Notes under the pieces: model-generated | The model's database searches: none | What the model saw: only the letters and a program-made list of their open reading frames with translations | Told to the model about the DNA's origin: nothing | Assembly (NCBI GenBank): GCA_019058365.1 | Contig: JAHPZE010000016.1 | Coordinates: 1 to 64,000 of the forward strand | Length of the DNA: 64,000 nucleotides | Origin: Promethearchaeota archaeon | GTDB lineage: Archaea; Asgardarchaeota; Lokiarchaeia; Sigyniarchaeales; SOKP01 | Reading direction: 5' to 3' | Shown: positions 1,283 through 20,912 of the stretch, in pieces | Layout of the letters: each line of letters opens with the position of its first letter | Numbering within the stretch: position 1 is the stretch's first letter | Translations under genes and position numbers: made by a program

Positions 1283-1466
1283 TATAACCACATAAAAAAG
1301 CGTGACCGGGTATTTTCCTTGTATACCATGACCGTAAGCTAACTTACAGTTTGTAGTTTCCCATAAATCGCAATTACAGTACTATCTACAACGTTAAACA
1401 AGTTTAACTTCCGGGTTCGGATGGTTCCAGCGCAGTAGCGAATTGCTACTAATTCATGTGGTTATA
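1283..1466 (-). other. Precursor processing stem with BHB/BHL-like splicing motif flanking the permuted 5S gene
   Basis: Perfect 11-bp inverted repeat tataaccacat (1283-1293) / atgtggttata (1456-1466); hairpin agtagc/gctact (1434-1450); GCG/CGC helix + UCA bulge + CUGG/CCGG 4-bp helix + AAC unpaired. Confidence 0.8.
1304..1424 (-). rRNA. rrf: 5S rRNA gene, circularly permuted (3' part 1424-1340 precedes 5' part 1339-1304 in the transcript)
   Basis: Minus strand reads CCAUCCGAACCCGGAAGUUAAACUUGUUUAACGUUGUAGAUAGUACUGUAAUUGCGAUUUAUGGGAAACUACAAACUGUAAG-UUA-GCUUACGGUCAUGGUAUACAAGGAAAAUACCCGGUC. 5S landmarks are present (CCGAAC, GAAGUUAA, AGUA/GGAAA loop E). Helices I (CUUACGG/CUGUAAG), II (ACAAG/CUUGU), III (CCGG/CCGG) and V (UUGUAG/CUACAA) all pair. 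Total length is 121 nt. Confidence 0.93.
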
Positions 1467-1483
1467 AACGCTAATCTTAACCA

Positions 1484-1491
1484 TTATATAA
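1484..1491 (-). promoter_or_regulatory. Candidate TATA box for the 5S precursor
   Basis: TTATATAA about 20 nt upstream of the 5' arm of the precursor stem; a second TATA-like TTATAAAA at 1501-1508. Confidence 0.45.
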
Positions 1492-2192: not shown

Positions 2193-4316
2193 TTACATCC
2201 CTTTAACGATACGTGAATATTTTCTTAAACCTGTATAAAGAGTTAAAACAGAAACTCCCCCTACTGCAATAATTAAAACTAAAGAGAAAGGAGCTATATA
2301 ATTAATTATATTTTGAGGTATTGAAAAAATATAGCCGGAATTATAAAAGATATCTGTATTATTAGCATAATCTCTTAACACAATAAAGTAAGAATATTCA
2401 CCGGGAGTTAATCTCTCAGTTTTAACTGTTATTAGTTCTTTATTTTCCTCAATGGAGTTTGATAATCCATAGTATATATAATCCATAAAATTATTCTTAG
2501 ATAAAAAAATGTATGCAGATTCAATTCCTGATTTATTGTCATAAGCTTCGATATTGAAAGTAGTTATTTCCGAAGTTTTAGGATTTTTCGGGTTATATTC
2601 TATTCCAAACAACTGAGGTGATGTATTATCTGGAAGTGCTGTAAAATTAAAATATGAAGGAATTAAATTGTGCCCCGTAATTGTTACATTATAACTCTCA
2701 TTTTCTTCAGCAGGAATACGAAAACTCACTAAACCATTCTCATTGGCATATACGGTATGATACTTTCCACCAGAACCTTCAAGATGAACTCGTGCATAAG
2801 GGACAATTCTACTATTCTCATCTTTTATGGTGATCGAGACTAATTGACCTTCATAGATAGTTTCGGTAAATGGATTTAGTGCTAATTTGGGCTCATTGGT
2901 ATAAATATCCACTTCAGGATCTCCTAAAAGACAATAAGTGAGGAGTTGTTTACGCTGAAAATCAAAAAAAGTTGAACCACTTCCATACTTATAATAATCA
3001 CTATTCATATATGCTACTTTTGAATCATATAAAGCCTTACCTTGCTGAAAGTTTTTATTAAGGAAAAACTCTTTCCAAAATAATTTTGCATTTCCACGAT
3101 TTAACATTTCAAGATTATAATCATCTTCAAAATACCATGTGACTCTTAATCCTCCAATCGCACCAATCGCACCACCTTTATCCTTTTTTATTAAAGTTTC
3201 ACCGATGTTATCATCATTATTATCATAGCTAGAAGTTGAGCAAGCATCTAAATATACTAAGGAAGGCATGTAATCATTTGAGCTTGAACTAGCATAAGAG
3301 GAAGAATAAGCCCATGTAGATGGATTTCTATAGTAATATGATGGAAGTCCATGACCTGCCATTAATACTGTTGAATATCCATTATTAAAATAATTATAAA
3401 GAACCGCTCTAGAAAGATTTCCTGCTTCTTCTACCAAATGAGTATAATTTACTGTATCTCTAGCATAATTTTCGATAATATAACTTGTTAAAAGACTCTC
3501 ATATTCTCCATCTGGATCTAAACTGCTGGGATAATCAGATATCCCCCCTGCTAATAGCATTCTATTCATCCAATCACCTACTTCCGGATTAGACTCATAT
3601 TTCAAGGTTTTATTTACCATTATCTCAAGTTCATTAGCATTATCTGCAGGAAACCTACCAACATAAACTTCAGGATCCCATGCGATTTCATCTAAGCCAT
3701 AAGCATTATCGTATGGAGATTCTCCCCAATTTCCATCTCCATCACTATCCCAGGTGCCATTGAGGTCTGCATAATAAAAATCGGTAGGTTTATATTCTTT
3801 ATCTCCAACAGATTCAGTTCTTCCCTCTCCAAATCTAATTACATCGGGATTGTATACATATCGTATAGGAATTAAATCATTCTGAGCATCTCCTGCTAAG
3901 AGAACCCATTGAATGTTTTCAGTTTCATAATATGATTTTATCATATTTCGAATTTTTTCTGCATCGTCAACTCCTTCATATAAAGAGAAATTACTTAAAA
4001 TAATGGTTTTTACACCTTTCTCATTATTCCATTCCATCAAGGGTTTAACAGCATCGATAAAATCAGTCCTATTTGGAGTTATTATTAACATTTCAATTTT
4101 AGGGTTATACCAGAGATCATTTAATGAAGTATATTCAATATCTGGTAAAACAGACAAATTATCATTTAAATCTCCATTGGCAGTTTTAATCCTTTCTAAA
4201 GATATATGCTCTCCAGGAGTAGTAGAATTATAGTATAAATTGATACTAATGATAGGAGTGAAAGTAAATATTAAGATAGTCAAGTAGATAAATTTTTTAA
4301 AAGAAACCCTAACCAT
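2193..4316 (-). CDS. Peptidase C25 (gingipain family) cysteine peptidase, secreted and membrane-anchored
   Basis: WVLLAGD, TDFYYADL, VGRFP, catalytic GHG and DAC motifs, LLGDP; N-terminal signal/TM and C-terminal TM helix. Confidence 0.85.
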   Translation of the reverse strand: MVRVSFKKFIYLTILIFTFTPIISINLYYNSTTPGEHISLERIKTANGDLNDNLSVLPDIEYTSLNDLWYNPKIEMLIITPNRTDFIDAVKPLMEWNNEKGVKTIILSNFSLYEGVDDAEKIRNMIKSYYETENIQWVLLAGDAQNDLIPIRYVYNPDVIRFGEGRTESVGDKEYKPTDFYYADLNGTWDSDGDGNWGESPYDNAYGLDEIAWDPEVYVGRFPADNANELEIMVNKTLKYESNPEVGDWMNRMLLAGGISDYPSSLDPDGEYESLLTSYIIENYARDTVNYTHLVEEAGNLSRAVLYNYFNNGYSTVLMAGHGLPSYYYRNPSTWAYSSSYASSSSNDYMPSLVYLDACSTSSYDNNDDNIGETLIKKDKGGAIGAIGGLRVTWYFEDDYNLEMLNRGNAKLFWKEFFLNKNFQQGKALYDSKVAYMNSDYYKYGSGSTFFDFQRKQLLTYCLLGDPEVDIYTNEPKLALNPFTETIYEGQLVSITIKDENSRIVPYARVHLEGSGGKYHTVYANENGLVSFRIPAEENESYNVTITGHNLIPSYFNFTALPDNTSPQLFGIEYNPKNPKTSEITTFNIEAYDNKSGIESAYIFLSKNNFMDYIYYGLSNSIEENKELITVKTERLTPGEYSYFIVLRDYANNTDIFYNSGYIFSIPQNIINYIAPFSLVLIIAVGGVSVLTLYTGLRKYSRIVKGM

Positions 4317-4765: not shown

Positions 4766-6319
4766 ATGTCGTATGATTTAACTGATATTGGTGGCATTGG
4801 GAAAGCAACTGCAGAGAAAATGAAAGCTGCAGGAATAGATTCTATTGAAAAATTAGCTAGAATTAAACCAGATGATTTAACAAAATTAAAAATTAAAGGT
4901 GTTGGAAAAACAACAGCACAAAAATATATCGATAATGCTTTACAATTACTTGAAGAAATTAGTCCTCAAGAAGAACCTAAATCTGAAGGAAAAGCAATTT
5001 CAGAAGTTAAAACTAAACCTATTTCCAAACCCAAACCTAAAACTGAAGCTTCAAATATTAAAGAATTAATAAAACAGCAAGCTGAATGCAATATTGGGTT
5101 AGTTGGCCATGTAGACCACGGTAAGACAACACTAGTGAAAGCTCTTACAGGGGATTGGACAGATAGACATTCAGAAGAGCAAGAAAGAGGAATTTCTATA
5201 AAATTGGGATACTCAAATGCAACTATTTTATATTGTCCGGCTTGTGACGAGTTTTTAACATATTACTTAGCAGAAAAGGCAAGGGAAAATGGACAACCTC
5301 GTTTTTTGTGTCCAAAATGTAAAGAGCAGTTGGAATTTAGAAGAAATATTTCATTTGTCGATGCTCCTGGTCATGAAATCTTAATGGCAACAATGTTAAG
5401 TGGTGCTTCATTGATGGATGGTGCATGTTTATTAATCGCAGCAGATGAGGTATGTCCTCAACCACAAACAAGAGAACATTTAGAAGCATTACATATAGCT
5501 AGTATAGAAAATATTATCATACTACAAAATAAAATTGATGCGGTTTCACGAGAGCAAGCAATGGAGAATTATCAACAAATAAAAGAATTTATTAAAGGTA
5601 CTATTGCTGAAAATGCGCCAATTATACCAATTTCAGCTGTATTTGGAGCAAATATCGGTCTAATTTTAAGAGCATTTGAAGAAATTATTCCAACTCCTGA
5701 ATTTAGTGAAGGAGACTTCCAATTCTTAATCGCAAGATCTTTTGACATTAATCGACCAGGGAAAGAAATCATTGATCTAAAGGGTGGTGTAATAGGTGGC
5801 TCTGTTTTAAAAGGTAAAATTAATGTCGGTGAACAAATTGAAATTCGTCCTGGTTTACGAATAAAAGATAATTACACTCCTTTGAAATCCACTGTTGTAA
5901 GTATTAGTCAGGGAAGTAATCTATTGGATAATGCAAAACCAGGGGGGCTTATAGGTTTGGGAACTAAATTAGATCCTGCTTTAACTAAGGGTGATCACTT
6001 AATCGGTCATTTAGTTGGAAAACCTGGTACCTTACCGGATGTTCTCGATGAAGTAGAATTAAAAATAAATCTTTTAGATAGGGTGATTGGTTCTGAACAG
6101 ATGCTTAGAGTCCATTCAGTAAAACATAATGAAAAATTATTACTAGTAGTCGGAACAGAAAAAACGGGGGGAACAGTGACGAAAATACTGAAAAATAGCG
6201 TTATCTTAAAATTAAATCCTCCAATATGTCCTCCAGAAAATTTCATCTATGCTATCTCGAGAATTATAAATAGAAGATATCGATTAATTGGCTATGGAGA
6301 GGTAATAGATCGTAGTTAG
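4766..6319 (+). CDS. eif2g: Translation initiation factor 2 subunit gamma with N-terminal helix-hairpin-helix extension
   Basis: GHVDHGKT, RGISIKLGY, DAPGH, MLSGA, PQPQTREH, NKID, RSFDINRPG, RLIGYG; the first ~60 aa are HhH (IGGIGKATAEKM...GVGKTTA). Confidence 0.95.
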   Translation: MSYDLTDIGGIGKATAEKMKAAGIDSIEKLARIKPDDLTKLKIKGVGKTTAQKYIDNALQLLEEISPQEEPKSEGKAISEVKTKPISKPKPKTEASNIKELIKQQAECNIGLVGHVDHGKTTLVKALTGDWTDRHSEEQERGISIKLGYSNATILYCPACDEFLTYYLAEKARENGQPRFLCPKCKEQLEFRRNISFVDAPGHEILMATMLSGASLMDGACLLIAADEVCPQPQTREHLEALHIASIENIIILQNKIDAVSREQAMENYQQIKEFIKGTIAENAPIIPISAVFGANIGLILRAFEEIIPTPEFSEGDFQFLIARSFDINRPGKEIIDLKGGVIGGSVLKGKINVGEQIEIRPGLRIKDNYTPLKSTVVSISQGSNLLDNAKPGGLIGLGTKLDPALTKGDHLIGHLVGKPGTLPDVLDEVELKINLLDRVIGSEQMLRVHSVKHNEKLLLVVGTEKTGGTVTKILKNSVILKLNPPICPPENFIYAISRIINRRYRLIGYGEVIDRS

Positions 6320-20141: not shown

Positions 20142-20912
20142 CTAATTAAATTTTAAATTATTATTAATAAAGTTCTCTATTGCTTTATTCAATTGCTTAG
20201 GTTTTTCTAACATTAGAGTATGACCAGCTTTATTAATTATACAAAGTACTGAGTTTCTTATTTTTTCATGAAAAAATTGTGAATATTTTACTGGTGTTAA
20301 TTGATCAGCTTTTCCGCAGATAATTAAAGAAGGTATATCAATCGAACTTGTTTTATCCATTGTATCAAAAGAATCACAAATTTTAAAATCACTATAAGTT
20401 ACCTCTGGATTTATTTGGGAGGTTTCTAGTAAAGAATCATCTATTATTTCTTTAGGGGTTTTTCTATAAAATGCTCCAGTCCGTAAATAATCTAAATACT
20501 TTTGGTAATCCGTTTTTATTGAATTAAAGATGAAAGGACTTACGCGCATTCTTGCTCCTGTAGCACATAAAATTAGAGCAGAAATGTCATTTGGATACTT
20601 AAAATAGTATTCTTGACCAATAATTCCTCCCATAGAATGTCCACACAAAATTAATTTTTCAGGCTTTAATGAATGTGCGAGCTTTCTTACAACATCTACG
20701 TATAAATCTAATTTTAATTCTGAGAATATGTTAGATTTATTGTGAGAAGGTAAATCAATTGCGATTATATTAAAATCAATTTTTAAATAGAATTGATTGT
20801 CCCATATATTTGAATTACCTCCCGCTCCATGTATGAAAATTAGTATCTTTTTAGAATTATTATCTTTAATCTGGTAAAAAATTTGCTTTCCAGAATATTC
20901 AAAGTATGGAAT
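20142..20912 (-). CDS. Alpha/beta hydrolase (256 aa; extends 88 codons beyond the ORF track to a probable AUU start)
   Basis: Open frame upstream of 20648 encodes IPYFEYSGKQIFY...IFIHGAGGNS..W...IAIDLPSH, then GHSMGG, D and GH. An in-frame TAA precedes ATT at 20912, with SD-like GGTG 6 nt upstream. Confidence 0.85.
   Translation of the reverse strand: MPYFEYSGKQIFYQIKDNNSKKILIFIHGAGGNSNIWDNQFYLKIDFNIIAIDLPSHNKSNIFSELKLDLYVDVVRKLAHSLKPEKLILCGHSMGGIIGQEYYFKYPNDISALILCATGARMRVSPFIFNSIKTDYQKYLDYLRTGAFYRKTPKEIIDDSLLETSQINPEVTYSDFKICDSFDTMDKTSSIDIPSLIICGKADQLTPVKYSQFFHEKIRNSVLCIINKAGHTLMLEKPKQLNKAIENFINNNLKFN

What the first reader, a model, noticed from the sequence alone, without database searches (positions are those of the whole stretch)
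1332..1349. Helix I closed by a UUAG loop: mature 5S rRNA may be a covalently closed circle
Seen: the normal 3' and 5' termini (CUGUAAG and CUUACGG) are linked by only four nucleotides, UUAG, with no removable spacer. Inference: after ligation in loop C the product is a 121-nt circle. It may remain circular in the ribosome (as Thermoproteus SRP RNA does) or need an unknown endonuclease to reopen helix I.
Basis: inference. Interest (0 to 1): 0.72.

Follow-up and report, generated by a model that had tools for sequence, protein, structure and literature searches.

The report
Ring-forming, loop-capped Asgard 5S rRNA
This Asgard archaeon's only 5S ribosomal RNA gene is written back part first with its normal ends fused by a four-base loop, and environmental RNA holds exactly the predicted 121-base ring, so its ribosome probably carries a circular 5S RNA, which I found no report of.

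Summary
Observation confirmed. On the minus strand, helix I (1349-1343 / 1338-1332) is closed by UUAG (1342-1339). It belongs to the genome's only 5S gene, which is permuted, opened in loop C and flanked by a relaxed bulge-helix-bulge (BHB) motif. BHB-rule cuts give a 121-nt ring, 1424-1304. RNA contigs from four studies show exactly that joint, without microhomology, and run through the UUAG loop; one matches the window fully. So the ring exists. That it is the ribosomal form is not shown: contigs give no ends or levels, and this assembly drops isolated linear contigs under 150 nt. Indirect support: 70 of 72 family members have an 18-nt hairpin with a 4-nt YNNG loop (UUCG commonest); other Asgard families vary stem and loop, so no shared cutting signal is evident; no FAU-1/RNase W match; engineered E. 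coli 5S works with a 4-nt connector. About 65% that it stays closed. Closest known: Thermoproteus SRP RNA. I found no paper on permuted archaeal 5S genes. This scan found them before on other Asgard DNA (92 notes).

The parts
1339..1342 (-). UUAG tetraloop joining the normal 3' and 5' ends of 5S rRNA
   Evidence: always 4 nt and YNNG in 70 family loci; spanned by RNA contigs
1332..1349 (-). Helix I as a 7-bp hairpin (arms 1349-1343 and 1338-1332)
   Evidence: every pair is standard in all 70 hairpins, with two-sided changes at pairs 5-7
1304..1424 (-). Permuted 5S rRNA body = the 121-nt ring (loop C 3' part, helices III-II 3' strands, IV/V, helix I cap, helices II-III 5' strands, loop C 5' part)
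   Evidence: BHB rule, best of 81 cut pairs, RNA joint 'goes back 121' and RNA cover limited to 1304-1424
1424..1433 (-). 5' half of relaxed BHB (hBH): GCG, CUGG, bulge AA^C; cut before 1424
   Evidence: cut site matches the RNA joint
1300..1309 (-). 3' half of relaxed BHB: CCGG, bulge UC^A, CGC; cut after 1304
1434..1450 (-). Leader side hairpin
   Evidence: MFE fold; conserved in relatives
1456..1466 (-). Leader arm of the 11-bp outer processing stem
1283..1293 (-). Trailer arm of the outer processing stem, after a U6 run at 1299-1294
1484..1491 (-). TATA-like element (probable promoter; inferred)
   Evidence: read; position and sequence conserved in the alignment; the sigma-70 scan does not cover archaeal promoters

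Best explanation
The gene is transcribed alone from a TATA promoter (inferred). Leader and trailer pair and present a relaxed BHB at loop C (sequence and comparison). The tRNA splicing endonuclease cuts before 1424 and after 1304, and RtcB joins the ends (enzymes inferred; product shown), giving a 121-nt covalently closed 5S RNA with a normal 12-nt loop C. The UUAG loop is a permanent UNCG-like cap on helix I, not a spacer, so the ring itself goes into the 50S subunit (inferred, not shown).
For: RNA joint 1424->1304, no ambiguous bases, in 4 of 4 runs from 4 studies; 150-151-nt cyclic contigs (period + 30) pass through both loop C and the cap; one contig is 100% identical over 1304-1424. Only 5S-like locus in the genome and in two single-contig genomes of the genus. 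Two EndA subunits and RtcB present. Cap: 18-nt hairpin with a 4-nt loop in 70 of 72 family loci, Y at position 1 and G at position 4 in all 70, UUCG in 33. In 16 other Asgard families, stems run about 6-12 bp and loops 3-4 nt of varied sequence, so no shared cleavage signal is evident. No DUF402 (FAU-1/RNase W) match; FAU-1 degrades pre-5S at UA in vitro (PMC5627344). E. coli lives on 5S whose native ends are linked by a 4-nt connector (PMC7283268). Precedents that stay closed: Thermoproteus SRP RNA (PMC4731332); circular 23S in archaeal ribosomes (PMC12918454).
Against: Contigs cannot show ends, levels or ribosome binding. Isolated linear contigs under 150 nt are discarded by this assembly, so a dominant linear 117-nt form would be invisible, and the runs were chosen for holding the ring. 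Reverse transcription can over-represent small circles (own knowledge). Rings that are re-opened are known: permuted tRNAs (PMC4267664) and Pyrococcus 23S (PMC7758197). A conserved loop could also be a nuclease signal.
Confidence: 0.65

Rival explanations
1. The ring is an intermediate. An unknown nuclease opens the YNNG cap, giving an ordinary linear 5S of about 117-121 nt in the ribosome, as happens with permuted tRNAs.
For: Circular intermediates are re-opened in permuted tRNAs (PMC4267664) and in most studied archaeal 16S/23S (PMC12918454). The RNA data cannot exclude it because short linear contigs are dropped. U1 and G4 of the loop are conserved and could be read by an enzyme.
Against: No spacer length variation in the family. 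Stem length and loop sequence differ widely across other Asgard families. No FAU-1/RNase W match. Closure is tolerated in working ribosomes (PMC7283268), so opening is not needed.
Confidence: 0.23
2. The ribosome mostly carries a linear permuted 5S (cut at the BHB but not ligated, or nicked elsewhere), as in brown algal mitochondria; the ring is a minor product.
For: One 116-nt contig (X8, depth 8.4) ends at 1424 without wrapping. An E. coli 5S opened in loop C and tethered to 23S is viable (PMC7283268). Permuted final products exist in stramenopile mitochondria (PMC4267664).
Against: The break lies in loop C in 26 family loci and at the helix III AA bulge in 43, and in a further register in other families; each restores the canonical sequence only after ligation. 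The joint is present in all four runs. A contig end can be a graph branch.
Confidence: 0.1
3. Assembly or reverse-transcription artefact, or a dead gene, with a normal 5S elsewhere.
For: One low-depth contig joins 1326 to 1423, probably a template switch, so false joints occur (table 8). G000 is a 54-contig assembly.
Against: The same layout is in 35 of 36 genomes of the genus and 19 families. Compensatory changes. The main joint has no microhomology and falls on the predicted nucleotide in four studies. No canonical copy in single-contig relatives.
Confidence: 0.02

Closest known systems
Permuted, circular SRP RNA of Thermoproteus tenax and T. uzoniensis (Plagens et al. 2015, PMC4731332)
   Same: [quoted passage not shown]
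   Different: Here the RNA is a ribosomal RNA, the layout spans many families, and break points differ between lineages. Endonuclease cleavage and particle binding are not tested here.
Circularly permuted tRNA genes (Cyanidioschyzon merolae; Soma et al. 2007, cited in PMC4267664)
   Same: Permuted gene, BHB-type cutting, circular intermediate.
   Different: Those rings are re-opened at the normal ends to restore a linear tRNA (removal of a spacer by RNase P and tRNase Z: own knowledge). Here there is no spacer, only a capped helix.
Circular archaeal 16S/23S rRNA (PMC12918454; PMC7758197)
   Same: BHB, EndA and RtcB make a ring of rRNA; 23S stays circular in some ribosomes.
   Different: Those genes are in normal order and the joint lies outside the functional core. 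Here ligation is needed to build loop C. PMC12918454 states that 5S is not processed that way in the cultures studied.
Permuted mitochondrial 5S rRNA of brown algae (Valach et al. 2014, PMC4267664)
   Same: 5S with helix I replaced by a hairpin.
   Different: Linear final product with an open three-way junction and no ligation.
Minor 5S circles in Sulfolobus and Halobacterium (Danan et al. 2012, PMC3326292)
   Same: Circular 5S reads in archaea.
   Different: Normal gene order, low level, not validated by RT-PCR, possibly degradation products.

Membership tests
5S rRNA (RF00001) | Sequence and helices I-V in canonical order | tested here: met
   Met only after re-ordering: 39.4 bits against a profile of canonical Asgard 5S genes, model positions 6-116; the genomic order scores 28.9 bits in Rfam, under the cut-off of 38.
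5S rRNA (RF00001) | Expressed as a discrete RNA of about 120 nt | tested here: met
   RNA contigs of four studies cover 1304-1424 only; levels not measurable.
5S rRNA (RF00001) | Bound by uL5/uL18 in the large subunit | not testable with these tools
   uL18 (PF17144) gene is present; binding not testable.
Permuted genes restored by splicing-type circularisation (Thermoproteus SRP RNA type) | Gene halves swapped, no canonical copy | tested here: met
Permuted genes restored by splicing-type circularisation (Thermoproteus SRP RNA type) | BHB-type motif at the new ends | tested here: met
   Relaxed hBH: 4-bp central helix, two 3-nt bulges and outer helix; exon-side helix absent. Found in 69 of 72 family loci.
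Permuted genes restored by splicing-type circularisation (Thermoproteus SRP RNA type) | Ligated joint present in RNA | tested here: met
   Joint 1424->1304 in four runs.
Permuted genes restored by splicing-type circularisation (Thermoproteus SRP RNA type) | Cleavage by EndA and ligation by RtcB | not testable with these tools
   Genes present; activity on this RNA inferred.
Permuted genes restored by splicing-type circularisation (Thermoproteus SRP RNA type) | The circle is the mature, functional form | tested here: inconclusive
   Ring seen through both joints, but contigs give no ends and short linear contigs are dropped.
Permuted tRNA type (ring re-opened) | Removable spacer between the normal ends | tested here: not met
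   4-nt loop in 70 of 72 family loci; one more has a stem mismatch, one has a 31-nt insert compatible with an intron.
Brown algal permuted mitochondrial 5S type | Final product linear and not ligated | tested here: not met
   A ligated joint exists; a linear share cannot be excluded.
UNCG/Z-turn tetraloops | YNNG loop folding with a Z-turn | tested here: inconclusive
   Sequence pattern met; UUAG loops are reported compatible with a Z-turn (PMC6795143). The closing pair here is G-C, not the usual C-G, and the fold was not tested.

The most novel reading that the evidence does not exclude
Ribosomes of this Lokiarchaeial family, and of most Asgard families sampled, carry a covalently closed 5S rRNA made by the tRNA splicing machinery from a permuted gene whose break point has moved repeatedly and which also takes up tRNA-type introns.
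Probability: 0.6. Interest if true: 0.85.

Novelty: new variant of a known kind. Interest (0 to 1): 0.72.

Why it matters
5S rRNA is treated as a linear RNA in all cytoplasmic ribosomes, and a 2026 paper still states that archaeal 5S is not circularised in processing (PMC12918454). A ring-forming 5S makes ribosome assembly depend on EndA and RtcB in the closest archaeal relatives of eukaryotes. It explains why 5S genes could not be predicted in closed Heimdallarchaeum genomes (PMC8813620). It raises a testable question: was the linear, separately transcribed 5S of eukaryotes kept from the ancestor or regained from a ring? A permuted covariance model would repair annotation at once.

Tried and rejected
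A canonical 5S elsewhere in G000: none by Rfam, profile or BLAST. Canonical hits in two family genomes (L032, L044) look foreign by sequence and flanks, and G092 also has the permuted gene (L095); treated as probable contamination, not tested. Absence of contigs ending at the UUAG loop: not used as evidence, because isolated linear contigs under 150 nt are discarded. Absence of leader and trailer cover: not used, because assemblers clip short tips (own knowledge). Low-depth rings (depth 2-2.6) bound loop-spanning words at about 0.7 of the rest, but these runs were selected for holding the ring, so I give this little weight. A blind BHB score alone is not specific: 6-46 candidates per locus, the 5S-restoring one first in 48 of 69 family loci. 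MFE folding recovers helices I, IV and V but not II and III of the ring. The sigma-70 scan is uninformative. Literature searches found no permuted or circular archaeal 5S gene; subscription journals are mostly not covered. Searches were input errors.

Full report
Observation. The arms form seven pairs in the MFE fold of 1480-1280. Upstream lie the loop C remnant and helices III-V of a 5S rRNA; downstream lie loop A and the 5' strands of helices II and III. So the normal 3' end precedes the normal 5' end, four bases apart. Rfam finds only a weak 5S match (28.9 bits, cut-off 38), which is the only one in the 4.7-Mb genome. Most named records that share the loop C pattern are titled Promethearchaeota, some with other Asgard names; I read the host as a Lokiarchaeial Asgard archaeon.

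Anatomy. An 11-bp stem (1466-1456 / 1293-1283) and a side hairpin (1450-1434) bring the two ends of the gene together. There, GCG-CUGG-AAC (1433-1424) faces CCGG-UCA-CGC (1309-1300): outer helix, 4-bp central helix, two 3-nt bulges, no exon-side helix, that is a relaxed BHB. Cutting after the second base of each bulge (the EndA rule; established knowledge) releases 1424-1304, 121 nt, and ligation gives a 12-nt loop C. Against a profile of 27 canonical Asgard 5S genes this cut pair scores 39.4 bits, the best of 81 tried (next 33.9; genomic order 24.4). The genome encodes two EndA subunits, RtcB and uL18.

Relatives. The locus is in 35 of 36 genomes of the genus. Of 72 family loci, 26 open in loop C like this one and 43 open at the AA bulge of helix III. 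The second class encodes loop C in one piece, commonly with the same 12 bases that the cut rule predicts here. Other Asgard families use the bulge site, some shifted by one base, and again the rule restores the canonical sequence. Among the genomes sampled I saw the permuted layout in 19 families and normal genes in six, including the sister family in the same order. These are samples, and kin are not independent.

RNA evidence. Four metatranscriptomes from four studies were laid on 1180-1600. All show one joint, 1424 to 1304, going back 121, with no letters that fit both sides. Cover is confined to 1304-1424. Seven of ten contigs are 150-151 nt long, one period plus 30, the form a closed cycle takes in a 31-mer graph. 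X1 record 1 (145 nt, depth 30.6) matches the window without a difference across the whole ring and the joint. These contigs also run through the helix I loop. The cut-and-join product is therefore shown. Limits: contigs carry no ends or levels; words seen once are removed, and isolated non-circular contigs under 150 nt are discarded (Logan preprint 10.1101/2024.07.30.605881), so a linear 117-nt 5S could be dominant and unseen. A cycle in a graph could also be built from two linear forms, though low-depth rings (depth about 2) are more simply read as single molecules copied round the ring (inference). One 116-nt contig ends at 1424, and one low-depth contig joins 1326 to 1423, probably a template switch.

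Is the loop a cap or a spacer? In 70 of 72 family loci helix I is an 18-nt hairpin with a 4-nt loop: UUCG 33, UUAG 15, UUUG 11, UACG 4, others 7; position 1 is always a pyrimidine and position 4 always G. All seven pairs are standard in all 70, and pairs 5-7 change on both sides (the closing pair is G-C, C-G or A-U). One exception has a stem mismatch and UUCG. The other (L075) has a 31-nt insert whose removal at a relaxed BHB would restore UUCG and a 120-nt ring (second-ranked candidate near the cap). In other families the stem is about 6-12 bp and the loop 3-4 nt, mostly UUCG or UACG but also GUAA, ACAU and UAA. That pattern fits selection for a stable hairpin tip, and fits poorly with a fixed signal or distance for a nuclease (inference). 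UUAG loops are reported compatible with the UNCG-type Z-turn (PMC6795143). The genome has no match to DUF402, the domain of FAU-1/RNase W; FAU-1 acts on pre-5S in Thermococcales (PMC5627344). E. coli grows on ribosomes whose 5S native ends are linked by a 4-nt connector, so closure is tolerated (PMC7283268).

Mechanism and odds. Shown: permuted gene, BHB-like ends, exact ligated joint in RNA, intact cap in RNA. Inferred: promoter at 1491-1484, EndA cleavage, RtcB ligation, entry of the closed ring into the 50S subunit. I put 0.65 on the ring being the mature form, 0.23 on re-opening at the cap, 0.10 on a mainly linear permuted form, 0.02 on artefact.

Comparison. It works like the SRP RNA of Thermoproteus, where a permuted gene is cut by the splicing endonuclease and the mature RNA is circular (PMC4731332); three defining features are met here, enzyme action is untestable, and mature circularity is inconclusive. 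It fails the test for the permuted tRNA type (no spacer) and for the algal mitochondrial type (ligation occurs; PMC4267664). Circular 23S rRNA in archaeal ribosomes is a precedent for a closed rRNA, and that paper says 5S is not so processed (PMC12918454); Pyrococcus 23S is a precedent for re-opening (PMC7758197). Minor 5S circles in Sulfolobus came from a normal gene and were not validated (PMC3326292). Closed Heimdallarchaeum genomes were published with no predictable 5S gene (PMC8813620); two single-contig genomes of 3.1 and 3.3 Mb in my sample each hold two permuted copies, though I could not confirm their names.

Novelty and verdict. My searches found no paper on permuted or ring-forming archaeal 5S genes. 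This scan has noted them on other Asgard DNA (92 notes); those notes are leads, not support. New variant of a known kind; interest 0.72.

Noticed in passing
L017, L020-L023, L056, L098 (loop D); L081, L083 (helix IV); L100 (loop C): 29-31-nt inserts inside the permuted 5S gene, bounded by BHB motifs with a full 4-bp central helix; removal by the EndA rule restores a 120-121-nt ring. They look like tRNA-type introns in a 5S rRNA gene, of which I found no report.
   Followed up: partly
L027, L029, L030, L078-L080, L092, L093, L095, L163 (loop C); L097 (helix IV): About 30-nt inserts in loop C or helix IV, by eye also BHB-bounded; my scoring script did not rank these cuts first, so the boundaries are unconfirmed.
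   Followed up: partly
L075 (G079:C7, near 20150-20190): 31-nt insert at the helix I cap; a relaxed BHB (3 of 4 central pairs) would splice it out and restore the UUCG cap.
   Followed up: partly
window 1424-1409 and 1310-1306; family loci L001-L100: Two break-point classes occur within the same genera (loop C in four genera, bulge site in most). Both strands of helix III carry CCGG, a direct repeat that could let the 16-nt loop C piece move from one end of the gene to the other. Direction not tested.
   Followed up: partly
L033-L045 (sister family f2) and L101-L130: Normal, unpermuted 5S genes, often in two or three copies, in the sister family and five other Asgard families: either reversion or repeated permutation. 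No tree was built.
   Followed up: no
L134, L147, L155, L156, L159, L166, L167: In several other families about 30 extra bases lie between the outer BHB and the start of the 5S body, with a second motif inside, which suggests two-step splicing.
   Followed up: no
L032 (G092:C68) and L044 (G108:C263): Canonical 5S genes behind 23S-like ends that look unlike the family's own; probable bin contamination.
   Followed up: no
window 4766-6319 (+): 517-aa ORF that looks like translation factor aIF2-gamma with a long N-terminal extension starting with a helix-hairpin-helix-like segment (read from sequence only).
   Followed up: no
window 2193-4316 (-): 707-aa ORF with an N-terminal hydrophobic stretch that looks like a gingipain-type (C25) peptidase (read from sequence only).
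   Followed up: no
G000, whole genome: ARAGORN finds only 30 tRNA genes, 19 of them with introns and many of doubtful quality, which suggests heavily interrupted tRNA genes.
   Followed up: no
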